Sequence record: PZ445431.1
Strand: one strand, 5' to 3'
DNA from: a phage
DNA length: 64,000 nucleotides
Below, in pieces: positions 48,716 through 63,518 of the stretch. A program made the position numbers and the translations under genes. Every line of letters begins with the position of its first letter. Within the stretch, counting starts at the first letter, position 1. The notes beneath the pieces were generated by a model. That model was given only the letters and a program-made list of their open reading frames with translations, was not told the origin of the DNA and made no database searches.

Positions 48716-49436
48716 TTTACGTAGTGAAATTAATAAAAACCTAAGAGAGGAAGCCAGGAGGTTTCCTCTCAAAAACTTTTTAAAGTCAAACGGTTCTACT
48801 AATATTACAAAGATTAGGCAGCTTCATCCAGACTTCCAACAAGAGGCATTAAATCTTATCTTTATTAAGAAAGCATTGAAAGTCCAAAAGGAAGAGTATG
48901 GGTATGAAAGAGTTAACTATAAAACAGCTACTCAATTAGTAGAGATTTGGTGTTACAAACATCAAGGCTATTTTATGCAAACAGCTAGATCCCATCTAGA
49001 AGGGCACGGTTGTTTACAATGTGCTAGAGAAAGCAATCTCAATACACCTATCGAGAAACCGGAAATAGATGAGGATGTTCAGTTTCCCACCTATCTCTAT
49101 ATCTTCTCTAATAAGGATCAGTCTAGGAAGAAATTAAAGACGAAGATTGGAGTTTCTAGAGAGCCACATCAAAGGTTTAAGAATCTAGAATATGATAAAC
49201 TGCGTGTGCCGGGTTTCGAAGATATGGAAGTATTTGGTATATATCAGTATAAGAAAGGATCTAAAGAACTTGCTTATAAAATGGAACATCAAGCACATAA
49301 ATTTTTCGAGAGCAGATTTGCTAATCATTATAAATTCGATGGAGCAAAAGAGATATTCAACGTTAAGGCTGTGGAGGCAGAAGAATATTTATTAAGTCAA
49401 GGATGCATAAAAATTTACCCAACTCCAAACTCATGA
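48708..49436 (+). CDS. putative GIY-YIG/T5orf172-like endonuclease with His/Cys zinc-binding module (paralogue of 46168..46686)
   Basis: N-terminal block shared with 46168 (HPDFQQEALNLIFI, QTARSHLEGHGCLQCA) plus C-terminal YLYIFSNKDQSRKKLKTKIGVSREPHQRFKNL GIY-YIG-like segment. Confidence 0.5.
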   Translation: MDDLRSEINKNLREEARRFPLKNFLKSNGSTNITKIRQLHPDFQQEALNLIFIKKALKVQKEEYGYERVNYKTATQLVEIWCYKHQGYFMQTARSHLEGHGCLQCARESNLNTPIEKPEIDEDVQFPTYLYIFSNKDQSRKKLKTKIGVSREPHQRFKNLEYDKLRVPGFEDMEVFGIYQYKKGSKELAYKMEHQAHKFFESRFANHYKFDGAKEIFNVKAVEAEEYLLSQGCIKIYPTPNS

Positions 49437-49463
49437 TAAAAATTTAAAAGTAACGAAATCTGC

Positions 49464-49493
49464 TTGACATTCGTGAGAATAATGTGTTATAAT
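49464..49493 (+). promoter_or_regulatory. near-consensus sigma70 promoter (TTGACA-N17/18-TATAAT) with no ORF downstream
   Basis: TTGACA at 49464-49469, TTATAAT at 49487-49493; differs from the TTGCTT early promoter class. Confidence 0.5.
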
Positions 49494-49779
49494 AATCTCA
49501 TAGATTAAAAACATCAACTTGTTTTTACCTCTAGGCCGTAGATTTACATCATTCCTCGTAGGAAAACACTTGATGACGGTTCTGCTTGCAGGTTCTCGTC
49601 AATTGTTCTTCCTCCCCGAGACTCAGGAGGATGTATCAAATCGCGCGCGCCTAGAGGGGCTAACTCTCATGAAATGGGGGTATATTAACTTTTAAATAAC
49701 TAAAAATATTTAAAGGCAATATTTATGTTCAAGATGATACACCTGTTGCCGCTCATCTGCTAGGATGGCACAACACTTT

Positions 49780-49960
49780 CTTCTAGGCTCCTAAGTTTCT
49801 AGGAATAGTTAAGCACTAACTCTAGAGTTTACACTAAACTTTAAATCTGTTTCTCACACATTCTAGGGCAGTTTCTCTCCAACGTTACATATCCTAGGGC
49901 GGTTTCCTATACAGGGCGGTTATAGGGAGGGCGGTTATTTCTAGGAGACATTTTTTGAAA
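49780..49960. repeat. short direct repeats (TTTCTAGG x4-5, GGGCGGTT x3)
   Basis: CTTCTAGG, TTTCTAGG, CTAGGGCGGTT, CAGGGCGGTT, GGGAGGGCGGTT read directly. Confidence 0.8.
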
Positions 49961-49979
49961 ACACATTTCTGGAAATTAC

Positions 49980-50580
49980 TGTCGGATTTGCACATTACAT
50001 TTCTAGAAATTTATGGTCGGATTTGCACATTGATAGGAGTCTCCAAAGTTTTTAGGAACACTGAAAATAGCAGCATTATTTCGGGCCGAAGGCCCATATT
50101 TGCCTGAGTTTTTAGAGCCACAGGAATTTTCACTTGTCAAGCGATTTTGCCCCATTTTGCTAATAAAATTTCGCTTTATCTCCCCTAATCTCAATTCTAG
50201 CCAAAACATCCCGCATTATCCTCAAAAATGCAGCAAACCGGTGCTAAAGCACCATCACCGCTGCTCCTTCCGTAGTTCCTCCCAAAATCTCATCGGATTC
50301 GCACTTCTCCCCAAACTCACACAATCACACACCCTCTCATCGAAGTCACAAAAATCTTGTCGGATTTGCACACCTTAACACTTGTCGGATTTGCACATAC
50401 TCTAGTAAACCCAGCTGGATTGCATCGCAGTTGCGGATTGCTGGAGTTTTTAGGAAAATTCATTGTCGGATTTGCACACTATAAAAATTTTTCGGGTAGG
50501 ATTTGCACATTACCAAAAATTGTCGGATTCGCACATACACGCCAGCACGTAACCCATGGAGCAAATGTCGGATTTGCACA
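49980..50580. repeat. iteron array: about 9 direct copies of TGTCGGATTTGCACA (minor variants)
   Basis: Copies at about 49980, 50016, 50291, 50359, 50383, 50464, 50496, 50521, 50566, all same orientation, irregular spacing. Confidence 0.9.
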
Positions 50581-50599
50581 AAAGCGCAGGGCAATTTGC

Positions 50600-50755
50600 C
50601 CTGCCTGCCGAAATGCGAATGATAATGAGAATGATTCGCATTTGAGAAGTTGAATGCGAATGAGAACAGTTATCATTTGACTACCGGAATACGAATGAGA
50701 ATGATTTGCATTTAGGAAGGGAAACGCTAATAATAATGAGAATGACTCGCATTTA
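50600..50755. repeat. second iteron family AATGAGAATGA(T/C)T(C/T)GCATTT (3 full copies plus partial), each embedding short AATGCGAAT/ATTCGCATT inverted motifs
   Basis: Copies at about 50621, 50693, 50733 plus GCGAATGAGAACAG at 50664. Confidence 0.85.
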
Positions 50756-50786
50756 CAAAGCGAAGTGAGAAACACTGTTATTTAAG

Positions 50787-50856
50787 TTATCCACAGGTTT
50801 ATTAACAGCACGATCTGACTTGACAAAATCCTAGTGATTTTGAGGCGTTATCCACA
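50787..50856 (+). promoter_or_regulatory. two perfect DnaA boxes (TTATCCACA) in direct orientation
   Basis: TTATCCACA at 50787-50795 and 50848-50856. Confidence 0.8.
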
Positions 50857-50894
50857 GACTTATCAACAGGTTATTCTACTGTATATTTATACAG
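50848..50894. repeat. left arm of about 47 bp inverted repeat (partner 54593-54639)
   Basis: TTATCCACAGACTTATCAACAGGTTATTCTACTGTATATTTATACAG versus reverse complement of 54593-54639, about 90% identical. Confidence 0.8.
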
Positions 50895-50926
50895 TATTCC
50901 TGCGTAGTGAATAACTCTAATATAGC

Positions 50927-50957
50927 TCTAAAACGCTCTCAAACGCGTTCTAACGCG
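50927..50957. repeat. direct repeat copy 1 (TCTAAAACGCTCTCAAACGCGTTCTAACGCG); partner at 55019-55050
   Basis: Same orientation, about 27/31 matches to 55019-55050. Confidence 0.8.
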
Positions 50958-51041
50958 TTTATTTTTGGGGGAGGTATTTTAATAAGGGGAAATTTGAGGA
51001 AGGCCAGAAAAGACGGGGCCGATAGTTGCGCCCCGTTATTA

Positions 51042-51236
51042 TTAGTCTGGTAGTCGATGTGTGATCTTTTCGCTTTCGCCGTAGGAGTCTACCAAATGTT
51101 GATAGTAACCATCGTTATCATAAATCACTTTATCATAATCGCCACGCTCCACCGCTTGCCGATTTTCCAGCGTATCAGGCACAAAGAAAGTATCAACGGT
51201 AACAGTAGTTTTAGTTACAACAATTTTATCACTCAT
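51042..51236 (-). CDS. hypothetical protein (64 aa), pre-early-region leftward operon
   Basis: ORF in leftward gene string. Confidence 0.45.
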   Translation of the reverse strand: MSDKIVVTKTTVTVDTFFVPDTLENRQAVERGDYDKVIYDNDGYYQHLVDSYGESEKITHRLPD

Positions 51237-51366
51237 AACGCCATTGCTCCTAGAATGAGAATGATTATCAATATCATTGTGAAGCCATTACCAAATCGTA
51301 AACGCTGGGAATGTTTCCCAGCGGTATTATTAGATTTATGGCTTTGTGTTTTTCGCCACCAGCTAT

Positions 51367-51579
51367 TCACGGTTTTAAATTCTCTATAGTTAATTTTGCG
51401 CGAATAGTGATTCCATATAATTCGCCTCCCTTGTTTCTTACATCAGGTAGCCAGTCCCACAATTCATGGTATCCGCTTAAAATTCCTAGCGATGCAAGAT
51501 TAGCAATAAAACCGGCTATAGTAACCGCTTCCAGTGAAATAGTTACACGATTATTAATAACTAAAGTAAACTTTTTCAT
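51367..51579 (-). CDS. hypothetical protein (70 aa)
   Basis: ATGA-coupled to upstream gene. Confidence 0.5.
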   Translation of the reverse strand: MKKFTLVINNRVTISLEAVTIAGFIANLASLGILSGYHELWDWLPDVRNKGGELYGITIRAKLTIENLKP

Positions 51580-51920
51580 TGCGCCACCTTTCGAAACGCT
51601 GTTTCGATACTTTCAGCGGTTGATTGAATATACGCGCCTTTCATAATTAGACGCTCCGTACATACTTTGCGGAAAATGAAAATGAATTCATTTTCATTTT
51701 CCGCTATTAACGCTTCCCCCATAACCTGAACGTCACAAGACCCAAAAGTTAAAAATTGAAACGCTAGTTCACGGGCGACAACGGCAGAAATTTTATAATG
51801 TGCTTTGCCCTCATAGATATTAACCACGCCTTTATAAACAGGGGAAAGCTGATTTAAATAGTTTGCTAATAATGCCGGACGGCAATTAGTTACAAAGCGA
51901 TTGCCCTCATAAATAACCAT
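51576..51920 (-). CDS. hypothetical protein (114 aa)
   Basis: ORF in leftward gene string. Confidence 0.55.
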   Translation of the reverse strand: MVIYEGNRFVTNCRPALLANYLNQLSPVYKGVVNIYEGKAHYKISAVVARELAFQFLTFGSCDVQVMGEALIAENENEFIFIFRKVCTERLIMKGAYIQSTAESIETAFRKVAQ

Positions 51921-52026
51921 TAAATGATCCTCGCATCACGGATAACCATAATCACTAGCGTGATCAACATTGCAGCACTAGACACGCCACAAACAAAAGT
52001 TAGCATTTTAACAATTGCCCCTTCCA

Positions 52027-52239
52027 TTATAACACCCCACGAAAAGCAGCGTAAAAAGTAGCAAAGTGTTTAACCGTTTCGGCTATCAAATTGCCGCGCT
52101 TGTCAAATTTCTTTTCTGTAACACGGAAAGCGTTTTTGTTGCGTGCTACATATTCTATTTTACAATCTGGACGCTCGAAGGTGTTAACATCCACCAGCTT
52201 AAAACCTTTAGAACGGGCAAGGGAAACATTTTTTAACAT
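52027..52239 (-). CDS. hypothetical basic protein (70 aa)
   Basis: ORF in leftward gene string. Confidence 0.5.
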   Translation of the reverse strand: MLKNVSLARSKGFKLVDVNTFERPDCKIEYVARNKNAFRVTEKKFDKRGNLIAETVKHFATFYAAFRGVL

Positions 52240-52245
52240 TTTTAT

Positions 52246-52395
52246 TCCCCTTTACCAGTCATACAGCCCAACAAGTAAGAAAACCCCGCGATACCTGCTC
52301 CAATAATAACCACGTGAACGCCGAAAGCTATTACAAACAGCGATAAAATAGCGCCCAAGATACTAGCCAGAATAGATCGAAAAATAACCATTTTA
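52246..52395 (-). CDS. possible small membrane protein (49 aa)
   Basis: Minus-strand ATG at 52395 followed by two hydrophobic segments; not in track. Confidence 0.35.
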
Positions 52396-52437
52396 TTAGC
52401 TCCTAGAAATTAGGGGATAATATATCCCCTTTAATAA

Positions 52438-52665
52438 TTACATTAAAACAATTTTTACCGCTTGCTTTTTGGTGCAGTGGTTAGTTTTCAATTCATCCAA
52501 CAAAAAGCCCGCCGTTTGCTGGTCAATCTTGTCATTGTCATAAAGTTCCTGAATGGTAACATAAGTTTTACCTATGCCGAACTCAGAAACCATAACGCTG
52601 ACAATAGCGGGAACGGATACCCATTCCATACCGTTAAAAATTGCAGAAGATGATGAATGTACCAT
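52438..52665 (-). CDS. hypothetical protein (75 aa)
   Basis: ORF in leftward gene string. Confidence 0.5.
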   Translation of the reverse strand: MVHSSSSAIFNGMEWVSVPAIVSVMVSEFGIGKTYVTIQELYDNDKIDQQTAGFLLDELKTNHCTKKQAVKIVLM

Positions 52666-52772
52666 TTTAACGCCTCCTAGAAATCAGGGAAAATTTTCAA
52701 TCCACCGTTTCGGTGTAAAGGCATTATAACAAAAAAGGCCACCATAATAGGCGACCTTTACAAAACTTTACA

Positions 52773-53294
52773 TTAGACTATTTCTAATGCTTCCACACCG
52801 AAACAGCGTTTTAGTTCTTTCTGTAAAACTGCATATTCATCCCAACGGGAATTATCAGGAATATAAACAAGCTGTTTTAATCGATTTGCATATAATAACG
52901 CCTTGTTACCAATTATTTCCGCGCCACCGTGTTTAATAATTAGTTTCATAACGGTATTAATAGGATCGCCGCCATTTACATAAGTACCGGACTTACTCAA
53001 TTGATAATGATAAATACTCGCATATACATTATCATTTTCAATCCATTCCCCTGTTTCTTCATCTTCTTCCCCATCGCTACCGAAACGAGAAGCATTATCA
53101 TATGCGTGTTCGTTTGCGAAAGCGTCCAGATCACAGCCAGCGGGAACAAAATGTTCCTCCGTCCAGCCCTCCCCGCAATAGCCAGTATGACAATCAACTA
53201 AAACGATCATATCGTGCTTAGCTTCATTCACACTTTCTAGTGAAAATCCATACTTGCAAACACTATCACGCTCAATAATTAATTTACTAAACAT
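52773..53294 (-). CDS. hypothetical acidic protein (173 aa)
   Basis: Cys/His cluster (CHTGYCGEGW...GC) followed by strongly acidic tract GSDGEEDEETGEWIEND. Confidence 0.6.
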   Translation of the reverse strand: MFSKLIIERDSVCKYGFSLESVNEAKHDMIVLVDCHTGYCGEGWTEEHFVPAGCDLDAFANEHAYDNASRFGSDGEEDEETGEWIENDNVYASIYHYQLSKSGTYVNGGDPINTVMKLIIKHGGAEIIGNKALLYANRLKQLVYIPDNSRWDEYAVLQKELKRCFGVEALEIV

Positions 53295-53347
53295 AATTAG
53301 TCTCCTAACTAAAAGGGAAAGCGGGGATTATTCCCCACTAGTAATTA

Positions 53348-54343
53348 TTATTCACTTTCGGTGTTAGTGGTAAAGGTAGAAATGTCAATACCTTTTACCA
53401 TTTCGTCGATCATTTCAGCAATATTGAAACTCTGTACCATTTCCAACATTGCCGCTTCCATTGCCGCGCCTGCTACCGCTTTCGCTTTCTGATTAGTCGG
53501 GGCGTACTGGTCAACTGCTACGCTTAACAGGTTAGCGATCACTATACGACCAATCGGCGTATCGATATAACCTTTAATCATAAACGGCGCTTTTTTCGCC
53601 GCTACTTTCGTGATTTGAGTTAATGCAATTTTACCCGCTTCCAGTTTTGCAGCATTTACAACAGCGGATTTATTAGCAGCAACGATAGAAGATACTTTAG
53701 TCATGATATTTCCTTTATTTTCAGTAGTTTGCGCATTTGCGCTTGAAGTTTGAGAGTTTACAGCCTGTTTTGCTACGTTGTCAACTGGTTTTAGTGTAAA
53801 TCCAGCGTTTGCAACGTTTGATTCATTCCCATACTCTAAATAATCGTTAGGGATCAACATGTTACCGCTAGCGCGTTCAAAACACAATACGCCAGTTGTT
53901 TCGATTGCGTCACTATCCGCACGTTTAATGGCGCTTGTCAATTCGCCCCAAATGCTAGACAGTAAATCTTCTACATCTCTGGAATTAATACCATTTACGC
54001 GAGTAGCGAAAACCATTTCTTTTTCTTGTACATTGTAACCACGGGCAATATAGCTTTTTTCGTCGTGACCTACAATGATAAAATCAATATCGCTTCCCCG
54101 CTGATTTCGTATGATGTGATAGTCACGGTTGTAAAGCACTAGAACGCGGCTAGGGTCTAGTAATAGCGTGAAATCATCGACTGAATAATGAGTATCATTA
54201 TTATCTAAAATATCATCGTGAATCTTTTCAACCATTGCCACCGTATGTTGTAGGCTTGCTGGACTTGATCCGTCTAGCAGGTTGCGCAAAATACCCTTAA
54301 TAATAGTGGCGTTTGCTGGTACTGCAATTCTTACAGTAGACAT
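53348..54343 (-). CDS. hypothetical protein (331 aa), first gene of leftward pre-early operon
   Basis: Longest ORF of the block; GGAGAC RBS; Ala/Lys-rich C-terminal half. Confidence 0.6.
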   Translation of the reverse strand: MSTVRIAVPANATIIKGILRNLLDGSSPASLQHTVAMVEKIHDDILDNNDTHYSVDDFTLLLDPSRVLVLYNRDYHIIRNQRGSDIDFIIVGHDEKSYIARGYNVQEKEMVFATRVNGINSRDVEDLLSSIWGELTSAIKRADSDAIETTGVLCFERASGNMLIPNDYLEYGNESNVANAGFTLKPVDNVAKQAVNSQTSSANAQTTENKGNIMTKVSSIVAANKSAVVNAAKLEAGKIALTQITKVAAKKAPFMIKGYIDTPIGRIVIANLLSVAVDQYAPTNQKAKAVAGAAMEAAMLEMVQSFNIAEMIDEMVKGIDISTFTTNTESE

Positions 54344-54592
54344 TTCTTTGTCTCCCTCGTTAATCGGTGAGTGAATGATATAGATAATTGTTCGCTATGG
54401 GCAAGAAAAAAGAAAAGGTTTTTTATTCCTTGCCTAACGCTTGTTTTTATGATACCCGCGTGTTTTCTATTTCTAGCTCTCTGTAAGCGTACACAAGGCT
54501 TTATTATAATAAGGGTAGCAGTGAGAAAACGCCGTGTAGCGTGTTCTAGACCTCTTAAATTTGATTGCGGTTGTTACTGCTACCATTCTACC

Positions 54593-54639
54593 CTGTATAT
54601 TTATACAGTAGGATAACCTGTATATAAGTCTGTGGATAA
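54593..54639. repeat. right arm of about 47 bp inverted repeat (partner 50848-50894), containing a DnaA box
   Basis: CTGTATATTTATACAGTAGGATAACCTGTATATAAGTCTGTGGATAA. Confidence 0.8.
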
Positions 54640-54688
54640 GTCGCCAAATCGTCGCCTATTACGTCAAGTTATTTTGTGCTGTGGATAA
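54631..54688 (-). promoter_or_regulatory. two perfect DnaA boxes (TGTGGATAA on + strand = TTATCCACA on - strand)
   Basis: TGTGGATAA at 54631-54639 and 54680-54688; partial boxes at about 54611 and 54965. Confidence 0.8.
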
Positions 54689-55018
54689 CTTTGGGGATAA
54701 GTTAAATGATAGTGGTTCTCACTTAGCCCGATAGTTTCTCATAGTTATTATTTCTCTTTAATTTATAAGTATATTATATAATATGAAATAGTTAGTTGGC
54801 TAATAGGTTTTTAGAGTATTAATAGTCTGCTAATAATAACGCATGTTACAATCCACCAGCGTGATTATCATCCTAGCGACTATTAGCGTGCTAATGACCT
54901 GATACACGTCCAGACTTATTTGTCAATGAAAAATAATAGCAGAAAATACTTTTTTGAAAAATCAAGTGGATAACTCATTAAATTTCATTTTTGCTTTTTG
55001 TATAAGTTATTAACAGGG

Positions 55019-55050
55019 TCTAAAACGCTCTGTAACGCATTCTAAGCGCC
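55019..55050. repeat. direct repeat copy 2 (TCTAAAACGCTCTGTAACGCATTCTAAGCGCC)
   Basis: Matches 50927-50957 in the same orientation. Confidence 0.8.
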
Positions 55051-55351
55051 TCAAAGGAAAAGATAGGCAATCATAAGGAGTACACCGAGAAAACCTCACC
55101 ACTAGCGAAATAAGTTTTGTCAAGTACCCCAAAGCAGATATAAATGAAAAAATTACTTGCTAAAATGGTTGTTTTGATGTTATTCGCGCGCCCGTTTCAT
55201 TTAATTTTAGGCAGTCGCTGGACGTGGTGCGGTGGCGTTTGTCCTTACGTTTCTTTACAAAAATAAGGTTGCGCCCTTCTCGGTATTCTCCTATTATTTA
55301 TCACGTAGGGCGGCAATGACGAACTACACGGCGGAGAAGTTTACCACCGCG

Positions 55352-55388
55352 CTCTTTAAAAACTAGGGAACATCTTAAAGCCTATCGG
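55352..55388. repeat. left arm of 37 bp near-perfect inverted repeat
   Basis: CTCTTTAAAAACTAGGGAACATCTTAAAGCCTATCGG; reverse complement matches 55795-55831 at 36/37. Confidence 0.9.
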
Positions 55389-55421
55389 CGGTAAACTTAT
55401 ATAATATAAGGAATCGACGAT

Positions 55422-55580
55422 ATGACAACAATATTTAACGATCATCCAGCTACCCACGACACGATCGAAAAAATCGAACAATGGGTAAAGACTGCAAATG
55501 AATACTATGCTAATCATTCGGAAGCGGTAATAATCTGCAATGATGGGAATGGTTTATATGCTTTGGAGGATCTCAAATGA
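55422..55580 (+). CDS. hypothetical small protein (52 aa) inside the IR-flanked cassette
   Basis: ATG after TATATAATATAAGGAATCGACGAT; ATGA-coupled to the next ORF; not in track. Confidence 0.45.
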   Translation: MTTIFNDHPATHDTIEKIEQWVKTANEYYANHSEAVIICNDGNGLYALEDLK

Positions 55581-55786
55581 AACAAACGCTTTTGATCACT
55601 GGCAAGCCTATCAAGTCACTTGATAGCAGAACAAAAAATTTGTTGATAGTAGCGCAAAAATCGGTAAAATACCGATTCAAGCAGTACAAGAAAGGAAGGC
55701 AGCAAGGTCTGGAAATGGTGTGGCGTAATATAATGATTGATTTATATAACTCCCATCAAATCGAAAAAAGTTTAAAAAACGCTTGA
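55577..55786 (+). CDS. hypothetical basic protein (69 aa) inside the IR-flanked cassette
   Basis: ORF track; Lys/Arg-rich. Confidence 0.5.
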   Translation: MKQTLLITGKPIKSLDSRTKNLLIVAQKSVKYRFKQYKKGRQQGLEMVWRNIMIDLYNSHQIEKSLKNA

Positions 55787-55794
55787 TACGCTAG

Positions 55795-55831
55795 CCGATA
55801 GGTTTTAAGATGTTCCCTAGTTTTTAAAGAG
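55795..55831. repeat. right arm of 37 bp near-perfect inverted repeat
   Basis: CCGATAGGTTTTAAGATGTTCCCTAGTTTTTAAAGAG. Confidence 0.9.
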
Positions 55832-56017
55832 CGATAACTTGATAAAATTTGACGGTCGGCACTTACCATAATGTGCCCCGCCCCCTAACTGGGATATAGC
55901 GGCCCGCGTGGAGTTCTTTAAATTTATTATACTGGCGAGCGGATTATAATCTAATAGCGTTTCAACGTATCGAGGCGCTATTGTGGAATAATCCCCCAAT
56001 AAACCGGAGTATTAAAA

Positions 56018-56269
56018 ATGCAAAACGTTATTACCGCGCCGAAAGTAGGTCAATCTGTTTTCATTCCTTTTGTAACTAAAACGGATGAATTAACCGGAAA
56101 AGCCGAACGTATTAAAGGTGTGGCGCTTGATCCTTTCGATAAAATCGAAGCGGTATACGCGGAAACGGAACGGAGTAACAACGGCAAGCCAATTTATAAC
56201 GTTCGCGTTAAATCCGGCGACGTTGTAAAGATCATTCAGAAAGATGATAAATGGCAAGCTATTAGCTAA
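56018..56269 (+). CDS. hypothetical protein (83 aa)
   Basis: ORF with GGAG RBS. Confidence 0.55.
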   Translation: MQNVITAPKVGQSVFIPFVTKTDELTGKAERIKGVALDPFDKIEAVYAETERSNNGKPIYNVRVKSGDVVKIIQKDDKWQAIS

Positions 56270-56368
56270 TTAGTGCTAACTTTATATTCCCCTGAAATAT
56301 GGGGAATATATGGATTAACATTAGTTAATCATAATCCCTTAATTAATAATTGAATGGAGTATTAAATT

Positions 56369-56785
56369 ATGTCTAACGTTAAAACCGAAAAAGCCGCAAA
56401 ATTCGCATGGAATGAAGAAAACACTGAAAAAGCCGTTTCTATGTATTCTGAAATGGTCGCTAAAAGCGGAATTGAATTTGCTAACACTGACGGCTTAAAA
56501 GAAATCGCCGCCGCCGTTGGCGCGGCTTCTCCCGTGTCTGTTCGCTCAAAATTGACCAGCGCAAAAGCCTACCAGAAAAGCGATAAACCTCGCAAAGTTG
56601 GCGGTGGTAGCTCAATCCGTAAAGCTCACTATGTGCGCGTCATTGCTAAACATGCCATTGATAGCGGCATTGTAAAAGACGCCGACGATCTGGCAAGTCT
56701 GGAAAGCGCAAAATTGGAAACGCTGGACGCCGTAGCGCAATTGTTAGGCGTAGCGGAGGAAGTAAAACAGGCCGCAGGCGAATAA
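56369..56785 (+). CDS. hypothetical protein (138 aa)
   Basis: ORF with GGAG RBS. Confidence 0.55.
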   Translation: MSNVKTEKAAKFAWNEENTEKAVSMYSEMVAKSGIEFANTDGLKEIAAAVGAASPVSVRSKLTSAKAYQKSDKPRKVGGGSSIRKAHYVRVIAKHAIDSGIVKDADDLASLESAKLETLDAVAQLLGVAEEVKQAAGE

Positions 56786-56834
56786 ATTTAATCAGTGGGG
56801 AATAATCCCCACTATCCCTTAAAGGAGAATAATT

Positions 56835-57059
56835 TTGATCTTTTATCCTAGCGAAGCGTTTATTTTGGGCTTATTTATAGTTGCCGCCGCTTTTATTCTG
56901 AATTATACGCGGTCAATTCTGGCAATAATCGGAATTAATAACGTTTACGCCGCAAATAATTTCCGCAAAAACGCGAATATTCAAAAATATATGTCAATCA
57001 TCTTTCTTACAATTGGCATTGTATTTGGCTTTTGTTCTAGTTTAACGCCGATTAATTAA
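56835..57059 (+). CDS. hypothetical membrane protein (74 aa)
   Basis: Two hydrophobic helices; AAGGAGAA RBS. Confidence 0.5.
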   Translation: MIFYPSEAFILGLFIVAAAFILNYTRSILAIIGINNVYAANNFRKNANIQKYMSIIFLTIGIVFGFCSSLTPIN

Positions 57060-57171
57060 ATGTTGCAAATTATAACGCCTTTAAAAGTCCTCACTTCAGG
57101 CAAGGCGTTATATTTGGCAATATTGCCAGCTTTAAAATGTTTTAAATCCCTTTAATGGAGTTACTTAACTT

Positions 57172-58836
57172 ATGAATATTTCCGCAGAAAAACAGTCTCA
57201 GATCAATAAACTTGCCGCCGACTTTAATTTCTACGGTAAGCGTTTACGCGCTACCAAACTTGAAGTTTGCGACGATATTTCAAAAGCTGTATATGATACG
57301 CCGAAACATTCAACGGCAATTTGTGACTGGTTGGAAGCAAATAAGCCAGCGAAACCGAAGGCAGCGAAAGCTGTAAAAGCCATTAAAAACGATGATCGCC
57401 CCGAAGCGGCGGGGATCGTTTCTAGCACGGTTGAGCAATGGGAAGTTAAATCCGGTCGCCGTTTTATTCTAACGTCGATTCAAAATAATACTTTCCCGCA
57501 CAAAAACTTTTTGAAAGCGCTTGAGCAATACGCTAGTTATTATGGCGCTGAATTGCTTGTTAGCAAATTCATTTACAACAAAAACGGATTTCAGAATGGG
57601 GAAGGCGGCGAAAAAATCAAATATGATCCCGCATTTGATAAATATATTTGTGAGAAAAACGTATTTTTAAATAATCGCCGCTTTGCTTTCATGGCTGAAA
57701 TTAACGTATTACCAACGGCAGATTATCCGCTTTCAGGATTCGCAGAAACTGCCACCGCTTTAAATATTGAAGGTCTGGCAATTGGTCACGCAAAAATTAC
57801 CGCTGAAAGTGTGCCAGCGTTAAAAGGTGAAGTAGTGCGCCGTATGTACTCCACCGGAACGGCTACGCTTAAAAACTACATTCAGCAGAAAGCAGGTCAA
57901 AAAGCTGAGGCGCTGCATAATTACGGCGCTTTGCTGGTAGAATTTGACGACGACGGCGAATTTTTTGTTCGCCAGCTTGAGACAATGGATGAAAGCGGGA
58001 TGTTTTATGATTTGAATATTTGCGCTATACCAACCGGATGTTTCAAAACATCTGATCATGTTTTAGGTTTGCAATATGGCGATATTCACGCCGAAAAATT
58101 AGATGATGATTGCGCTGTTGCATCATGGGTGGGCGAAAATAGCTTGCTTGATATTCTTAAACCAAAATATCAGTTTATCCATGATGTGCATGATTTTACA
58201 TCGCGTAACCATCATAATCGCGCCTCTGGTGTATTCCTAGCTAAACAGTACGCCGCCGGACGTGATAAAGTTATTGATGATCTTATCGATACTGGACGTG
58301 TATTAGAATCAATGGAGCGCGATTTTTCTCAAACAATCATCGTGGAATCCAATCATGATTTGGCGTTATCCCGTTGGCTTGACGATCGCAACGCTAATAT
58401 TAAAGACGATCCCGCAAACGCCGAACTGTATCACAGCCTAAACGCCGCTATTTATGCAGCTATTGCAAAACAAGATGATACCTTTAACGTATTGGATTAC
58501 GCGCTTAGAAACGTTGCAGGTTGCGAATTTAACGCTATTTTTCTGACTACTGACCAATCTTTCAAGATTGCAGGAATTGAATGCGGCGTACACGGTCACA
58601 ATGGCATTAACGGCAGTCGGGGCAATCCTAAGCAGTTTAAGAAACTTGGACGCCTCAACACTGGCCATACTCACACGGCGAGCATTTACGGTGGCGTGTA
58701 TACCGCTGGCGTTGCTGGTAGTCTCGATATGGGTTACAACGTGGGCGCGTCAAGCTGGACGCAAACGCATTTAATTACCTATGCAAACGGGCAACGTACT
58801 TTGATTGATTTCAAAAACGGTAAATTCTTTGCATAG
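57172..58836 (+). CDS. A1: A1-like pre-early protein (metallophosphoesterase-type)
   Basis: 554 aa with GDIHAE, ESNHD, GVHGHNG, NTGHTHT phosphoesterase-like motifs; size and position next to a dmp-like gene match T5 A1. Confidence 0.6.
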   Translation: MNISAEKQSQINKLAADFNFYGKRLRATKLEVCDDISKAVYDTPKHSTAICDWLEANKPAKPKAAKAVKAIKNDDRPEAAGIVSSTVEQWEVKSGRRFILTSIQNNTFPHKNFLKALEQYASYYGAELLVSKFIYNKNGFQNGEGGEKIKYDPAFDKYICEKNVFLNNRRFAFMAEINVLPTADYPLSGFAETATALNIEGLAIGHAKITAESVPALKGEVVRRMYSTGTATLKNYIQQKAGQKAEALHNYGALLVEFDDDGEFFVRQLETMDESGMFYDLNICAIPTGCFKTSDHVLGLQYGDIHAEKLDDDCAVASWVGENSLLDILKPKYQFIHDVHDFTSRNHHNRASGVFLAKQYAAGRDKVIDDLIDTGRVLESMERDFSQTIIVESNHDLALSRWLDDRNANIKDDPANAELYHSLNAAIYAAIAKQDDTFNVLDYALRNVAGCEFNAIFLTTDQSFKIAGIECGVHGHNGINGSRGNPKQFKKLGRLNTGHTHTASIYGGVYTAGVAGSLDMGYNVGASSWTQTHLITYANGQRTLIDFKNGKFFA

Positions 58837-58888
58837 TTAAATTTAATCGGCGGTTGAAATATACCGCCATTAATAAAAGGTTTATTAA

Positions 58889-59146
58889 ATGAATATTGTA
58901 TTACCTAAAACGCTGGATAAAAAGCAGTATATAACGCCGGATGATATGGAGTGCGGCAAGGTATACCAATTCGATTATATGTTGGCTAGTCCGACAAATA
59001 CAGGTTGTATTATTGCAGTTGATACCCGCGATAATGACGTATTAACGTTTAATGATTATTCTGACTTTATGGAATGGTTAGATGATCAAAGTATCACTAA
59101 TAATGGCGAATTAACGCCCTATCAATTAACGCTCACAATTAAATAG
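58889..59146 (+). CDS. hypothetical acidic protein (85 aa)
   Basis: ORF track. Confidence 0.5.
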   Translation: MNIVLPKTLDKKQYITPDDMECGKVYQFDYMLASPTNTGCIIAVDTRDNDVLTFNDYSDFMEWLDDQSITNNGELTPYQLTLTIK

Positions 59147-59184
59147 TTTAATCCCGTAAATATAAATAATCAGGAGTTATAAAC

Positions 59185-59577
59185 ATGAAACAACAAAATA
59201 TTCCTTTTGACGCTGCAAAATCTTCCATCGTTCTAGTTTATTCTAATGGTGAACGTTATCACGTCGAGGCGGGGCAAGTTAATTTTGATTTGCTGAATTA
59301 TAACGACGCTTTGCAGGTTACTACCTTTGCTTATGATACCGGCAAAGTGGCAAGCCATACGAAAGCAAAAGGCGTTTACGCTGATACTTTGACAGTGCAA
59401 ACAATTATTATTGATGCGCTTAAATCCGGTCTAGCGTTTGCAGTTGTTAAGCCGTGTCCGGTCTGCAATCCAGAAGCTAGCGCGATGGTTTACATTTGCG
59501 CGGGAATCCGTTCTAGTGTATCCGGTGAAGATCTTAGCTTTATTGGTGACGCGCTAGCGTACGGCCTCACTAATTAA
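59185..59577 (+). CDS. hypothetical pre-early protein (130 aa), possible A2 counterpart
   Basis: Position downstream of A1 and size; no motif-level support. Confidence 0.3.
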   Translation: MKQQNIPFDAAKSSIVLVYSNGERYHVEAGQVNFDLLNYNDALQVTTFAYDTGKVASHTKAKGVYADTLTVQTIIIDALKSGLAFAVVKPCPVCNPEASAMVYICAGIRSSVSGEDLSFIGDALAYGLTN

Positions 59578-59665
59578 TAGTTAATTGAACATTGCCAGCT
59601 AATCTAATATAATTAGCTGGCAAGATTGAATTAACCCTAAACCCCTTAAATGGAGAATGTAGCAA

Positions 59666-60400
59666 ATGAATCAAGTTAATATGAATATTACCCGCGCTTT
59701 CCCGCATATTTCCCGCGTTATGATTTGGGATTTAGACGGGACAATCATTAATTCAATGCACCGTGTAGCGCCTTGTTTTGATGATAACGGAAATTTAAAT
59801 TTAAATAAGTATTCCCGCGAAGCCTGCAAACATGATTTAATTATGCAGGATTCTTTATTGCCGTTGGTTGAATATATGCGCCAATGTATGAATGATGCAA
59901 ATACTTTAAATATTATTTGTACCGCGCGCCTTATGTCTAAAAGCGATTACTTTTATTTGCGTAAACAAGGCTTGCGAGGGCGCGGAAATAGCAATATCCG
60001 CGTATTCTCCCGCGATACATTACACAAATACTTTGAAGCGGATAAGGTTAGCGAAATATACCACAGCAAAGACGCTGTATACAAAAGCTATTACTTTGAA
60101 CTATTTAAACAGCTATATCCGAACGCTGATTTTACGATGATTGATGATCATAAAGGCGTATTATCGGCGGCGGCAAGTGCTGGATTTAAAACGTTGGATG
60201 CTCAAGCCGTTAACGATATCCTATCAATCGGCGTAACATTGATCGGTGAAACCTTTATTGATGAATCGCTTGATGATGATAACGATTATCAATTCCTAGC
60301 CGAACGTTTAAAAATGTGTTGGGAAGGTATGACCGAGGAAGAACGCGCGGAATATAGTACCACTCCGCAACAATTCATTGATAAATTAAAAGTTGCCTAA
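59666..60400 (+). CDS. dmp: 5'-deoxyribonucleotidase (HAD-superfamily phosphatase), Dmp-like
   Basis: 244 aa with HAD motif I MIWDLDGTIIN; size and position match T5 dmp. Confidence 0.65.
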   Translation: MNQVNMNITRAFPHISRVMIWDLDGTIINSMHRVAPCFDDNGNLNLNKYSREACKHDLIMQDSLLPLVEYMRQCMNDANTLNIICTARLMSKSDYFYLRKQGLRGRGNSNIRVFSRDTLHKYFEADKVSEIYHSKDAVYKSYYFELFKQLYPNADFTMIDDHKGVLSAAASAGFKTLDAQAVNDILSIGVTLIGETFIDESLDDDNDYQFLAERLKMCWEGMTEEERAEYSTTPQQFIDKLKVA

Positions 60401-60415
60401 CAATTAAAAATAAAA

Positions 60416-60450
60416 TAGTCACACTGTGTAATGATAACATGGTGTGACTA
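60416..60450 (+). other. strong hairpin (9 bp stem) immediately after the dmp-like gene
   Basis: TAGTCACAC ... GTGTGACTA with 17 nt loop; no T tract. Confidence 0.5.
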
Positions 60451-60563
60451 TTAGCTTGCTAAGTACCGGGGCGGTAATGAGACTCATTCTCATCTAGGGA
60501 ACCTCTGGGCACACCTTCATGTGTAATCTTATGAGATTTCGAGAATTGGTAATTAGCGCTAAC

Positions 60564-60809
60564 TTAGGAGGAACACCGGTCTACCGGCTTGTATCCTGAT
60601 TCTGACATACGAAATCTCCTCCGCGATGCCCGAGATCCATCCGACCACTCTCGCTCAAACTCCTCCCGTTTCTCCGCAAACTTCCGCTCCCTTTCCGAAA
60701 GCTCCCGCGATACTCCCGCAATATATTCACGATGCTTATTAATCGCCCCGAGTGTTCCGAAGATTCCCGCAAGCACCCCGATAATGAAGATAGCCACAAA
60801 ACTAAACAT
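60564..60809 (-). CDS. hypothetical membrane-anchored protein (81 aa)
   Basis: N-terminal TM helix then Arg/Glu-rich tail. Confidence 0.45.
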   Translation of the reverse strand: MFSFVAIFIIGVLAGIFGTLGAINKHREYIAGVSRELSERERKFAEKREEFEREWSDGSRASRRRFRMSESGYKPVDRCSS

Positions 60810-60912
60810 TACTTGTCTCCCCGCAGCTTACGTTCGATACGAGCTAAGTGGTTATCTAAGATGCACTGTCCGATAATTACCACAACTAGTAAAGCAATAA
60901 TTACTACTTCCA

Positions 60913-61643: not shown

Positions 61644-61726
61644 AATCGTTCCTCTGTTTAATTTATAAATATATTATAGCAAAATAGAGGGATCTAAGCA
61701 AATACATTTTTAAAGAAGGAGATTGT

Positions 61727-63508
61727 ATGAGTTTTTTCGCAGGAAAATTTAGTGATGGTAAAACTGTATTATCTCTAAACGCTGCTAATGGTGGTGATAT
61801 AAATCAGCACTACTCTCCAAATACTAATAGTATCTTCCACTCAGATATGCCATTTGTCCTAGTTGATGGGACTTATGAAGCAGCCCTAGGTAACGCAGGT
61901 AATGGATACTTTGTTACTCAGATGCCTTGGGATATTATAAATATTAAATCCAATGATCCGGGTAGAGTTATATTAACTGCTATTGAGATAAACGGTACTC
62001 ATCGTGGATTTCTGAATGGTACTCAATCTCAGGTTGGCCAGTTCTTATCATTCTTTGAAGACCCACCACGTGCTGGTGCTGAATTATCTGTAACATCTGC
62101 TTTTGCGATCGGTGATAGTTTAGCTCATGGTACTTATATCTATAATGGTGGTCTTGGTCATGAGGAATCTATTGCTAGGCAAGGTTCTGGAGGCAGTTTA
62201 CTACAGTCCTCTGGTTTCCAGATCTTTAGACCTGGTGGTGTTTCTGCTGGTGAAGCCATTGCCAGAGCCTGGAGTCTTATGGGTTTTCCAACTGGTGTCT
62301 CTACTGTTCCTTTAGATGGTGGTAACGCAGATTATTGGGAACCTAACTGGCAGGCGCCTATTGGTTCTGCTGGTAGAGGCCATGATTGGTTTTATGTTTG
62401 TAGTTCTAATATTCGTGGCTTCGCAGGTAAAAAAGGCGTACTACCAGATAACGTAAACGTTCTTTACCAATCTCCTGCATACCCAGAAAAAATATATGTT
62501 TGTAGAGGTTCTACTTCTAATATGGCTGCTCAGTCTGCTAGAAAGGTATATGTACAGGACTGGTATAACGTTACGCCAACTAAGGTTATTTGGTATGTGC
62601 TAAATCTGCGCTATTCTAATGGTAGTATGGGAGTTTCTGGTAATCCATTTACCGGTTCAGATATCCTAATATCTCCGTCTAATTTTACTATTAAAGGTGT
62701 TAGCCTACCAAATACAGGCTATAAATTTATTAACCAGAATGCTTTCGGAAACTTAGGCTATCGCCCTGATATGGAGTATGTTGGTAATAACGCTGCGTAT
62801 ACCGGAGTTTTTGGTGATAATACTGCACGATGTGAATTTATCGGCTCTAGTAATGGCGGGTTGTGGTCTCCTGTTAACTATGGGGGTGCAGCTTCTCAAA
62901 TTAGCTTATATAAATTTGGTATAGGTAAACAATGGTATGTAGATACTAATACCAACTCCATTGGTAATGAACATGGACCTGTGTGGAGTCCTAGTACTGT
63001 ACCCCTCAGGTTATTCCCAGGCAACGTTGCAAGTACTTATGTAGGGGACGATATAACTCCATCCTACCCTGGTGCTGGTGACTTCTACACACCTTTGGCC
63101 ACAGTTTGGTTGGGATTACCAAATGCTCACTCTACTGTTATATTAACTACTGAAGTTATTATGGGTAATCTTAATACTGCTGGAATGCCTGTGCGTACTT
63201 ACGGCGGTAGCGCTTGGCAGGTACAAGGTAGACGTCAACAAAGTTATACAGCTGGTGATGGTGTATTCCACCAGATTCTTACTCTGCCACCTGGATATCT
63301 AGTACCTTATCACAGTACAACTTCCTATAGTTATATACAGACTTGGGCTAGTAGGCCTGATGAGTTTGCTTTCCGTAGGAACGGATATATTTATACTATT
63401 AAAAACCTTGGTAATGGCAACGTTGAGTTGGGTGTTATCATTCACGCTGCAGAAGCGGCAGCTGTTTTCTTGCCAAGACTACGTGTAACAGTTCAACGCC
63501 TAACCTAA
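61727..63508 (+). CDS. oad: receptor-binding tail protein, pb5-like
   Basis: 593 aa; N-terminus [41 protein letters not shown] follows the T5 pb5 N-terminal pattern as I recall it; divergent from llp-like gene. Confidence 0.65.
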
Positions 63509-63518
63509 AGGAGGATAT

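What the first reader, a model, noticed from the sequence alone, without database searches (positions are those of the whole stretch)
50600..50755. Second iteron family with embedded palindromes next to the first array
AATGAGAATGA(T/C)T(C/T)GCATTT occurs three times (plus a partial copy); each copy contains short inverted motifs AATGCGAAT/ATTCGCATT. This forms a distinct protein-binding-site-like cluster directly between the 15-mer iterons and the DnaA boxes.
Basis: seen in the sequence. Interest (0 to 1): 0.5.

Follow-up and report, generated by a model that had tools for sequence, protein, structure and literature searches.

The report
Fur-box array at T5 injection stop
The repeats are real, but they are this T5-like phage's copy of a long-known palindrome array at the point where T5 DNA injection pauses, not origin iterons; their units read as binding sites for the host iron regulator Fur, which would make the unsolved injection pause easier to test if binding is confirmed.

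Summary
The window is Escherichia phage TrudiRoth, a T5-like Epseptimavirus. The pattern occurs exactly three times (50624, 50694, 50735), with a degenerate fourth unit; 0.03 matches are expected by chance.

The array (50606-50756) is homologous to T5 "direct repeat C / palindromes E-I". That array lies in Repeat Region 3 of the terminal repeat, the non-coding stretch thought to hold the injection stop signal. It sits between a DnaA-box pair and palindrome J with the 7.9% nick. As a sequence feature it is therefore already described, with no known function.

New here: the units score as Fur boxes.
- A matrix built only from 13 E. coli Fur operators gives 6 hits of at least 12 bits, in 6-bp register. 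Shuffles give 0.05.
- All 21 distinct T5-like relatives have 6-8 such hits.
- Erwinia phage KEY and Vibrio phage PG07 keep Fur-like clusters beside their DnaA boxes.
- Variation within related phages follows the Fur information profile.
- A near-consensus LexA box lies next door.

Most likely the array is coated by host Fur on the first-injected DNA. Its role in the pause is inferred, and no binding was tested. The origin-iteron reading is not supported.

The parts
50606..50756 (.). Whole array: four palindromic units, homologous to T5 direct repeat C copies 1-4 / palindromes E-I (AY587007 9468-9637). It holds 12 Fur-matrix hits of at least 8 bits, and 6 of at least 12 bits.
50611..50643 (.). 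Unit 1: AAATGCGAATGAT-AATGAGA-ATGATTCGCATTT, hexamers GCGAAT GATAAT GAGAAT G ATTCGC. Fur-like 19-mers start at 50609, 50615, 50621 (17.5 bits) and 50627 (14.4 bits), each 6 bp apart.
   Evidence: (I9)
50653..50678 (.). Fur-like 19-mers start at 50656 (12.6) and 50662 (11.9). In relatives this unit reads ATGAGAATGGTTATCATT, which is 18 nt identical to the E. coli fecI operator.
50688..50713 (.). Unit 3: AATACGAATGAGAATGATTTGCATTT. Fur-like 19-mers start at 50691 (12.6) and 50697 (15.3).
50722..50754 (.). Unit 4: AAACGCTAATAATAATGAGAATGACTCGCATTT. Fur-like 19-mers start at 50720, 50726, 50732 and 50738 (13.6).
50584..50604 (-). GCGC plus the GC-rich palindrome GCAGGGCAAATTGCCCTGC. This is the homologue of T5 palindrome J, which carries the annotated 7.9% major nick. 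It is terminator-like on the minus strand, the direction of the adjacent pre-early ORFs.
50566..50580 (+). Nearest copy of the 15-mer TGTCGGATTTGCACA (T5 direct repeat D). It is a neighbour of the array, not part of it.
50787..50807 (+). DnaA-box pair TTATCCACA-ggt-TTATTAACA (T5 inverted repeat C').
   Evidence: Davison preprint
50848..50868 (+). DnaA-box pair TTATCCACA-gac-TTATCAACA (T5 inverted repeat D').
50877..50896 (.). TACTGTATATTTATACAGTA: 19 of 20 matches to the LexA SOS-box consensus. It is the homologue of T5 palindrome D.
51251..51281 (.). Separate strong Fur-like cluster on the other side of the DnaA boxes: 19-mers at 51251 (17.0), 51257 (21.8) and 51263 (13.9 bits). It lies just upstream of the small ORF 51042..51236 (-). 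Several Epseptimavirus relatives keep it.

Best explanation
The array is the TrudiRoth copy of the T5 'direct repeat C' palindrome array. It lies in Repeat Region 3 of the terminal repeat, at the distal end of the first-step-transfer DNA. Its units are Fur boxes: 7-1-7 / 19-bp inverted hexamer arrays of the type NNNAAT...ATTNNN, overlapping in 6-bp register.

Proposed mechanism: when this stretch enters the cell, pre-existing host Fur-Fe2+ dimers bind and polymerise over about 150 bp. DnaA binds the two adjacent box pairs and LexA binds the adjacent SOS box. Together they form a host-protein complex on the last-entered part of the first-injected DNA. This needs no phage protein synthesis, which is also true of the injection pause.

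Shown here: homology to the T5 array, statistical match to the Fur motif, conservation of that match across relatives, and the neighbouring LexA and DnaA sites. Inferred: that Fur actually binds. Further inferred, and weaker: that the complex contributes to holding or marking the pause until the phage proteins A1 and A2 act, or alternatively that it blocks RNA polymerase reading out of the pre-early operon.
For: Identity of the region:
- The window is 100% identical to phage TrudiRoth.
- It aligns over about 390 bp at 77% identity to T5 9.3-9.7 kb, where GenBank AY587007 annotates direct repeat C copies 1-4, palindromes E-I, palindrome J with the 7.9% nick, and direct repeat D.

Match to the Fur motif:
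- The matrix was built only from 13 E. coli K-12 Fur operators: 12 footprinted regions at the coordinates in Chen 2007 Table 3, plus the fhuA upstream region.
- It gives 6 hits of at least 12 bits in 161 bp, with a maximum of 17.5. The training operators score 12-22 bits.
- 5000 shuffles of the array give a mean of 0.046 hits and a maximum of 2. 2000 column-permuted symmetric matrices give a mean of 0.04 and a maximum of 4.
- In 29 kb of E. coli DNA, 18 of 22 hits fall inside footprints.
- Outside the terminal-repeat region the window holds only the number of hits expected by chance.
- Without any matrix, the array shares more 7- and 8-mers with the E. coli Fur footprints than any other 161-nt segment of the window.
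- A motif derived from the arrays by palindromy alone correlates r=0.84 with the Fur matrix at offsets of +/-3, with P about 0.001.

Conservation:
- All 21 distinct T5-like arrays have 6-8 hits of at least 12 bits (maximum 16.7-24.7), although unit number and sequence differ.
- Some units contain perfect Fur cores, for example AATGATAATCATTATC. One unit is 18 nt identical to the fecI operator.
- Erwinia phage KEY and Vibrio phage PG07 (A1 protein 32% identical) keep Fur-like clusters next to DnaA boxes and a LexA-like palindrome.
- Within four groups of relatives, columns at high-information Fur positions vary in 10% of cases, against 30-32% elsewhere (Fisher p=3e-8).

Other points:
- No T5-like phage encodes a Fur homologue.
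- The neighbouring LexA box matches the consensus at 19 of 20 positions.
Against: - No binding experiment exists. All the evidence is sequence statistics.
- By crude consensus counting, this phage's own array has only one 19-mer with at least 14 of 19 matches. Its units are of moderate strength, 12-17.5 bits.
- No convincing or conserved promoter overlaps the array; the best matches are 9 of 12. It is therefore not a classical Fur operator.
- The Vibrio phage loci for D325 and BBMuffin showed no such cluster.
- Only the passages mentioning Fur in the genome-wide T5 resistance screen paper were read. Fur appears there only as repressor of the receptor gene fhuA, so no independent support comes from it.
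- There is no obvious physical way for cytoplasmic proteins bound to DNA that has already entered to stop the DNA behind it.
- The repeat copies are not independent, and the conservation test has some ascertainment bias, because sites were chosen in the reference sequence.
Confidence: 0.6

Rival explanations
1. The palindromes are binding sites for a phage-encoded protein, most plausibly the pre-early DNA-binding protein A2 (with A1), which is required for second-step transfer. The likeness to Fur boxes is then either coincidental or reflects competition with Fur.
For: A2 is essential for second-step transfer, is described as DNA-binding, and its mechanism is unknown (bioRxiv 10.64898/2026.04.02.716235). 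A2 is encoded in the same terminal repeat (window 56369-56785). It is still 40% identical in Vibrio phage PG07, which keeps the array, so a conserved specificity is possible. Palindromic units suit a dimeric binder.
Against: The motif equals that of a host protein in position-specific detail. It sits among sites for other host proteins, DnaA and LexA. The pause itself needs no phage protein synthesis, so at least the arrest step cannot depend on A2. A2 has no recognisable DNA-binding family in Pfam, and nothing is known about its sequence preference.
Confidence: 0.2
2. The array acts as DNA structure rather than as a protein-specific site. Cruciforms, hairpins or A-tract bends at the pause point, or near the right genome end, would affect passage through the tail or channel, nicking, or terminase action.
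For: The units are palindromes. As single-stranded DNA the array folds better than every one of 200 shuffles (z = -4.0). Some outer arm triplets change together between phages, for example ACG/CGT in T5 against GCG/CGC and GCA/TGC elsewhere. Linkers are A-tract rich, and Davison lists these palindromes as candidate cleavage sites. In the right terminal repeat the array would lie a few hundred bases from the physical end (coordinates).
Against: The sequence, not only the complementarity, is conserved: AAT/ATT triplets are the least variable columns. Many units have mixed, non-complementary arms. Most palindromes have a 1-nt centre, which favours a duplex site for a dimer over a hairpin. The arm sequences are confined to words that also occur in genuine Fur operators.
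Confidence: 0.1
3. The array is a conventional Fur operator controlling an iron-repressed promoter inside the non-coding region. One candidate is a short minus-strand transcript running from about 50723 to the palindrome J terminator.
For: There is a weak minus-strand promoter-like match, TTGTAA-17-TATTAT at 50758-50730, overlapped by Fur-like sites, with a terminator-like hairpin at 50604-50586. Rfam gives a sub-threshold full-length hit to the Fur-regulated sRNA PrrF on that strand (24.8 bits against a gathering score of 90, E = 0.2). Most E. coli Fur clusters overlap promoters (Chen 2007).
Against: The promoter match is only 9 of 12 and is not conserved in position in T5. The Rfam hit is far below threshold. 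Most Fur-like sites would lie inside the transcript rather than at its promoter.
Confidence: 0.05
4. One reading: a second iteron family of a replication origin that also uses the neighbouring DnaA boxes.
For: The array consists of repeated units of about 20 bp next to four DnaA-type boxes and another repeat family, in a 1.5-kb non-coding stretch.
Against: The units are palindromic and irregularly spaced. Copy number and unit length vary between relatives. No initiator gene is adjacent. T5 origins map near the genome centre, and replication genes are not expressed from first-step DNA (Davison). The units match the Fur motif rather than a private sequence.
Confidence: 0.03

Closest known systems
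T5 'direct repeat C' copies 1-4 with palindromes E-I, in Repeat Region 3 of the left terminal repeat, the presumed injection stop signal region (GenBank AY587007 annotation; Davison, bioRxiv 10.1101/866236)
   Same: Homologous sequence in the same place: inverted repeat D'-spacer-C' with DnaA-box pairs, then the array, then palindrome J with the 7.9% nick, then the direct repeat D 15-mers. It lies between convergent early and pre-early genes.
   Different: About 77% identity. There are four units here, against six Fur-like units in T5 by my segmentation. This phage's units use GCGAAT/ATTCGC arms more than T5's GAGAAT/ATTCTC arms. The papers read here assign the T5 array no function and do not mention Fur, iron, LexA or SOS.
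Multi-dimer Fur operator clusters of E. coli, such as the aerobactin iucA, fecI, fhuF and entC operators (Chen et al. 2007, PMC2189734)
   Same: The position-specific motif is the same, the sites overlap exactly 6 bp apart, and the arrays extend over 100 bp or more. Individual scores fall within the range of footprinted operators.
   Different: There is no convincing overlapping promoter and no downstream iron gene. The array lies on a virulent phage, in a non-coding terminal-repeat segment bounded by terminator-like palindromes. It has more sites than any chromosomal operator used for training, which have 1-2 hits of at least 12 bits each.
Iteron plus DnaA-box replication origins of plasmids and plasmid-prophages
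   Same: Clustered repeats of about 20 bp lie next to DnaA boxes in non-coding DNA.
   Different: The units are palindromic, the spacing is irregular, there is no adjacent initiator gene, and the mapped T5 origins are elsewhere.
Host-repressor sites carried by phages: Fur boxes upstream of sitABCD on lambdoid coliphages (PMC6969025) and LexA boxes of phage GIL01 (PMC4551915)
   Same: Phage DNA carries consensus sites for a host global regulator.
   Different: Those are single operators at promoters of temperate phages. This is a promoter-less multi-site array in a virulent phage, at the boundary of the first-injected DNA.

Membership tests
T5-type direct repeat C array of the injection-stop region | Sequence homology to T5 9468-9637 | tested here: met
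   blastn aligns window 50540-50900 to T5 over 390 bp at 76.7-77.2% identity.
T5-type direct repeat C array of the injection-stop region | Position between the inverted repeat C' DnaA-box pair and palindrome J with the 7.9% nick, followed by the direct repeat D 15-mers | tested here: met
   The order in the window is 15-mer at 50566-50580, GCGC plus palindrome at 50584-50604, array at 50606-50756, DnaA boxes from 50787.
T5-type direct repeat C array of the injection-stop region | Lies in a Demerecviridae terminal-repeat region that encodes dmp, A1 and A2 | tested here: met
   The record is TrudiRoth, an Epseptimavirus. A2 is at window 56369-56785, A1 at 57172-58836, and a 244-aa ORF in the dmp position at 59666-60400. 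The terminal-repeat boundaries of this phage were not determined.
T5-type direct repeat C array of the injection-stop region | The phage performs two-step DNA transfer, pausing at this region | not testable with these tools
   According to Davison, two-step transfer has been verified experimentally in only two T5-like phages.
Fur-box cluster | 19-bp sites scoring within the range of footprinted Fur operators on a matrix built independently of the phage | tested here: met
   6 hits of 12.6-17.5 bits against 12.0-22.2 bits for the training operators. Shuffle and permuted-matrix controls give about 0.05.
Fur-box cluster | Overlapping sites exactly 6 (or 3) bp apart, built on 7-1-7 or hexamer inverted repeats | tested here: met
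   Within each unit, all hits of at least 8 bits are 6 bp apart. The same holds in all 21 relatives. The palindrome-derived motif matches the Fur matrix at offsets of +/-3.
Fur-box cluster | Overlap with a promoter whose transcription is iron-repressed | tested here: inconclusive
   Only weak 9-of-12 promoter-like matches were found, and they are not conserved in position between the window and T5. No expression data are available.
Fur-box cluster | Metal-dependent binding of Fur protein in vitro or in vivo | not testable with these tools
   This needs EMSA or footprinting, a Fur titration assay, or ChIP.
Replication-origin iterons | Oriented direct repeats with regular, helically phased spacing | tested here: not met
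   The units are palindromes. Spacing is 35/35/41 bp here, and unit length is about 22-41 bp in relatives.
Replication-origin iterons | Adjacent gene for an iteron-binding initiator | tested here: not met
   The flanking ORFs are small hypotheticals and a DUF7566 protein. None of the ORFs scanned, nor A2, matches an initiator family.
Replication-origin iterons | Origin activity at this locus | not testable with these tools
   Literature cited by Davison places the T5 origins near the centre of the genome.

The most novel reading that the evidence does not exclude
The long-sought T5 injection stop signal is a landing pad for three pre-existing host regulators: LexA (one SOS box), DnaA (two box pairs) and Fur (this array). 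Each reports a different aspect of host state: DNA damage, replication and growth status, and iron status. Their binding to the last-entered part of the first-step DNA would set or hold the pause, and would gate second-step transfer until A1 and A2 clear or cut the complex. A virulent phage would then check host condition before committing its whole genome.
Probability: 0.2. Interest if true: 0.85.

Novelty: new member of a known kind. Interest (0 to 1): 0.55.

Why it matters
How T5 stops DNA injection after about 8% of its genome remains unexplained. [quoted passage not shown]

If the palindrome array is a Fur-binding array, and palindrome D is a LexA box, the region becomes a set of sites for named, purified and genetically tractable host proteins. 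The hypothesis can then be tested directly with fur mutants, iron chelation, gel shifts, ChIP at the first-step stage, and point mutations in the AAT/ATT triplets. It would also be an unusual use of Fur boxes: no promoter, and on a virulent phage whose relatives enter through iron-regulated receptors.

If Fur does not bind, the finding reverts to an ordinary, already annotated T5-family repeat of unknown function.

Tried and rejected
- **Origin-iteron reading.** Rejected on unit symmetry, irregular spacing, the absence of an initiator gene, and the literature on T5 origins.
- **Promoter scan of the array.** Run in the window and in T5. Only weak, non-conserved matches were found.
- **Rfam search of 49300-51500.** Nothing came near threshold. 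The PrrF hit (24.8 bits against 90) is judged a chance match, probably helped by the palindrome J terminator.
- **Pfam on A2 and the neighbouring small ORFs.** No family for A2, and DUF7566 for the 331-aa ORF. A2 is not visibly Fur-like.
- **tblastn of E. coli Fur against 50,697 phage records.** No Demerecviridae hit, so a phage-encoded Fur homologue is ruled out at this sensitivity.
- **Crude consensus counting** (at least 14 of 19 to GATAATGATAATCATTATC). Much less sensitive than the weight matrix for this phage's array, with one hit only. This is reported as a caveat.
- **Single-strand DNA folding.** z = -4.0, which is expected for any palindrome array and does not discriminate between readings.
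- **Informal comparison of the units with other E. coli regulator consensus sequences** (ArgR, CRP and others, recalled from memory). No match was seen. This was not a database test.
- **Literature searches for Fur or LexA together with T5 or T5-like phages.** Nothing relevant was found in the searchable library. Davison 2015 could not be retrieved. Heusterspreute 1987 and Wang 2005 were not looked for. Prior mention of Fur boxes in any of these cannot be excluded.

Full report
**1. What the window is**

Window 49800-51300 is 100% identical to Escherichia phage TrudiRoth (MZ501109, Epseptimavirus, Demerecviridae). It matches 523 phage records, almost all of them T5-like phages of Salmonella, Escherichia and Klebsiella. 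The window runs in the opposite orientation to the standard T5 map. A2 is at 56369-56785, A1 at 57172-58836, and a 244-aa ORF in the dmp position at 59666-60400. Plus-strand early genes end at 49436, and minus-strand small ORFs end at 51042. The finding therefore lies in a roughly 1.5-kb non-coding gap between convergent genes.

**2. The observation**

- The degenerate 20-mer occurs exactly three times (50624, 50694, 50735) and nowhere else in the 64 kb, even with three mismatches allowed. Shuffles give 0.03.
- The repeat finder sees four copies of a longer unit spaced 35, 35 and 41 bp apart. It also reports a 13-nt-arm palindrome in the first unit.
- The array sits between the last 15-mer (50566-50580) and the first DnaA box (50787-50795).
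The statement that every copy holds the inverted motif is only loosely true for units 3 and 4.

**3. It is a described T5 feature**

The T5 GenBank record AY587007 annotates the following in the homologous position:
- palindromes C and D;
- inverted repeats D' and C';
- direct repeat C copies 1-4 with palindromes E-I (9468-9637);
- palindrome J with 'major single-stranded nick 1, 7.9%' (9661-9668);
- nine copies of direct repeat D.

blastn aligns window 50540-50900 to this stretch over 390 bp at about 77% identity. The sequences are collinear.

Davison's preprint calls this 'Repeat Region 3'. He places the calculated first-step-transfer shear point (9618) inside it and regards the region as the likely injection stop signal. 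He stresses that it is better conserved than the neighbouring genes, and he proposes that the DnaA boxes act through membrane-bound DnaA. He offers no function for the direct repeat C units, other than listing their palindromes as possible cleavage sites. The text does not contain the words Fur, iron, LexA or SOS. [quoted passage not shown]

**4. The units look like Fur boxes**

Unit 1 reads GCGAAT GATAAT GAGAAT G ATTCGC. This is the hexamer layout of the Fur box GATAAT GATAAT C ATTATC (my knowledge of the consensus; the GATAAT-array and 6-bp overlap models are summarised in Chen et al. 2007).

To test this without circularity I took 12 of the 13 footprinted regions in Chen's Table 3 (the plasmid iucA operator was not fetched). 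I fetched them from E. coli K-12, added the fhuA upstream region, and built a symmetric 19-column matrix.
- Training sites score 12.0-22.2 bits, and 9.5-20.6 bits when each is left out in turn.
- On 29 kb of E. coli DNA, 18 of 22 hits of at least 12 bits fall in the footprints.

**5. Scan of the window**

- The 161-bp array holds 6 hits of at least 12 bits, with a maximum of 17.5 at 50621, and 12 hits of at least 8 bits. Within each unit the hits are exactly 6 bp apart.
- 5000 dinucleotide shuffles of the array itself give a mean of 0.046 hits of at least 12 bits, never more than 2.
- 2000 column-permuted but still symmetric versions of the matrix give a mean of 0.04, never more than 4.
- Across the window, hits of at least 16 bits number 8 against 0.5 expected. 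Seven of them lie in 50590-61300, and the other 53 kb holds about the chance number.
- Without any matrix, more positions of the array carry 7-mers and 8-mers that also occur in the E. coli Fur footprints than in any other 161-nt segment of the window.
- Caveat: counting plain matches to the 19-bp consensus finds only one 19-mer with at least 14 of 19 in this phage's array. TrudiRoth's units are therefore moderate sites, comparable to the tonB, fepA or fhuF2 operators.

**6. Relatives**

An exact search for the 15-mer in IMG/VR returned 65 loci, from which 21 distinct homologous arrays were extracted.
- Every array has 6-8 hits of at least 12 bits (maximum 16.7-24.7), again in pairs 6 bp apart. 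This holds although the arrays differ in unit number (4-7), length (172-229 bp) and sequence, down to about 71% identity.
- Several units are textbook boxes. One is cggAATGATAATCATTATC. Another is AATGAGAATCATTATC, which I recall as the aerobactin operator core. A third, ATGAGAATGGTTATCATT, is identical over 18 nt to the E. coli fecI operator fetched.
- T5 itself has 7 of its 15 terminal-repeat hits in the array, three of them above 19 bits.

More distant family members:
- Erwinia phage KEY (A1 protein 66% identical) has 7 hits within about 160 bp, beside its 15-mers and DnaA boxes.
- Vibrio phage PG07 (A1 32% and A2 40% identical) has clusters on both sides of its DnaA boxes and keeps the LexA-like palindrome.
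- Proteus phage 2 and Klebsiella phage Roth49 have weaker clusters.
- The loci fetched for Vibrio phages D325 and BBMuffin have none.

**7. Pattern of variation**

- Within four groups of alignable arrays, columns at the high-information Fur positions (the AAT/ATT triplets) vary in 10% of cases. Low-information positions of the same sites vary in 30%, and columns outside the sites in 32% (Fisher p = 3e-8). Some ascertainment bias remains, because the sites were picked in one reference sequence per group.
- A motif built only from 9-1-9 palindromes in the arrays has the consensus TTAAATGAGAATCATTCTCATTTAA. It correlates r = 0.84 with the E. coli matrix at offsets of +/-3 and about 0 at offsets of +/-1 and +/-2. 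Column-permuted matrices give a mean of 0.40, and P is about 0.001. This is the register expected if each palindrome is a 7-1-7 Fur site, and it explains the paired hits.
- No T5-like phage encodes a Fur homologue. Any Fur-family binder would therefore be the host's.

**8. Neighbours**

- 50877-50896 (T5 palindrome D) is TACTGTATATTTATACAGTA, 19 of 20 matches to the LexA box consensus. A weaker copy lies at 54591-54610 in Repeat Region 2. The palindrome is kept in T5, KEY and PG07.
- The full order is: LexA box, two DnaA-box pairs, Fur-like array, GC palindrome with nick motif, 15-mers.
- A further strong Fur-like cluster lies at 51251-51281 on the far side of the DnaA boxes. It is conserved in several Epseptimavirus relatives.
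- Palindrome J is terminator-like in the direction of the adjacent pre-early ORFs, both here and in T5.

**9. Mechanism**

- Shown: homology to the T5 array, a specific and conserved statistical match to the Fur motif, and the co-location with DnaA and LexA consensus sites at the distal end of the first-step DNA.
- Inferred: host Fur-Fe2+ binds and polymerises on the array as it enters. All three proteins pre-exist in the cell. This fits the fact that arrest needs no phage protein synthesis and is not seen with receptor-loaded liposomes.
- Further inferred, and weak: the complex helps hold or mark the pause, or blocks RNA polymerase from reading toward DNA that has not yet entered. I know of no physical model by which proteins on already-entered DNA stop the DNA behind it.
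- In the passages of the genome-wide T5 resistance screen paper that mention Fur, Fur appears only through repression of the receptor gene fhuA. I did not check the screen's full hit lists.

**10. Rivals**

- **A2 or another phage protein.** This cannot be excluded.
- **A purely structural role.** It is supported by the palindromy and by some paired arm changes, but opposed by sequence-specific conservation.
- **A Fur-controlled promoter or small RNA.** The support is poor.
- **Origin iterons.** They fail the tests of unit symmetry, spacing and an adjacent initiator.

**11. Verdict**

As a sequence element it is an already annotated T5-family repeat, so this is a new member of a known kind. 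The Fur-box identity of its units and the adjacent LexA box are absent from everything I could search. Older subscription papers could not be read. That reading is well supported by sequence statistics and comparative data, but untested biochemically.

Noticed in passing
window 50877-50896, and 54591-54610: TACTGTATATTTATACAGTA matches the LexA SOS-box consensus at 19 of 20 positions, with 0.00 expected in shuffles. It corresponds to T5 'palindrome D'. A 17-of-20 copy lies in Repeat Region 2. The palindrome is kept in T5, Erwinia phage KEY and Vibrio phage PG07. The T5 papers read here do not mention it as a LexA box.
   Followed up: partly
window 51251-51281: Three overlapping Fur-like 19-mers (17.0, 21.8 and 13.9 bits), including the best site in the whole window. 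They lie just upstream of the small ORF 51042..51236 (-), over its ribosome-binding site. Equivalent pairs (14.1 and 16.9 bits) occur about 240-300 bp from the DnaA boxes in four relatives (L021, L027, L028, L060).
   Followed up: partly
window 54184-54202: A 21.3-bit Fur-like site, AATAATGAGTATCATTATT, lies inside the 5' part of the DUF7566 ORF (53348..54343, minus strand), about 390 bp from the second LexA-like palindrome.
   Followed up: no
window 60272-60296 and 60473-60491; T5 (AY587007) 228-252: Strong Fur-like sites lie in the 3' end of dmp and just beyond it. By analogy with T5 these are within a few hundred bases of the physical left end of the genome, the first DNA to enter. The site within dmp is conserved in T5 (19.0 bits), Klebsiella phage Roth49 and an IMG/VR relative (24.3 bits). 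This could reflect the coding constraint of an acidic peptide or a real site.
   Followed up: partly
window 50577-50722, minus strand: Sub-threshold full-length Rfam hit to PrrF, a Fur-regulated small RNA of Pseudomonas (24.8 bits against a gathering score of 90, E = 0.2). It ends at the palindrome J hairpin. Probably chance, but it lies on the strand where a weak promoter-like match (50758-50730) and a terminator-like hairpin bracket about 145 nt.
   Followed up: partly
window 49981-50580 (15-mer copies): The 15-mer TGTCGGATTTGCACA ends in ATTTGCACA, which matches the DnaA-box consensus TTWTNCACA at 8 of 9 positions. By T5 coordinates these repeats straddle the right boundary of the terminal repeat, so they could equally be terminase or packaging sites.
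   Followed up: no
window 50584-50604; L002 4151-4167: The GC-rich palindrome carrying the T5 7.9% nick motif (GCGC) also scores as a rho-independent-terminator-like hairpin. It points in the direction of the pre-early ORFs that read toward the array, both here and in T5.
   Followed up: partly
L081 (Vibrio phage D325) and L083 (Vibrio phage BBMuffin): These Demerecviridae loci encode A1 and A2 and contain DnaA-type boxes, but the stretches fetched show no Fur-like cluster. The array is therefore not universal in the family. The BBMuffin locus may miss the relevant region because the record starts nearby.
   Followed up: no
window about 60500-64000: Window coordinates map to TrudiRoth record positions by adding 50970, so window 64000 would be record position 114970, beyond the 114488-bp record. 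Also, in T5 dmp lies about 120 bp from the left end of the genome, whereas here a 593-aa ORF (61727..63508) follows dmp.
   Followed up: no
literature (PMC7553319): In a BL21 overexpression screen, fragments encoding FeoB and YdiE protected against T5 and the T5-like phage CEV2. The authors attribute this to higher Fur-Fe2+ occupancy repressing the receptor gene fhuA. That condition would also maximise Fur occupancy of the phage array, so the two effects are confounded.
   Followed up: no
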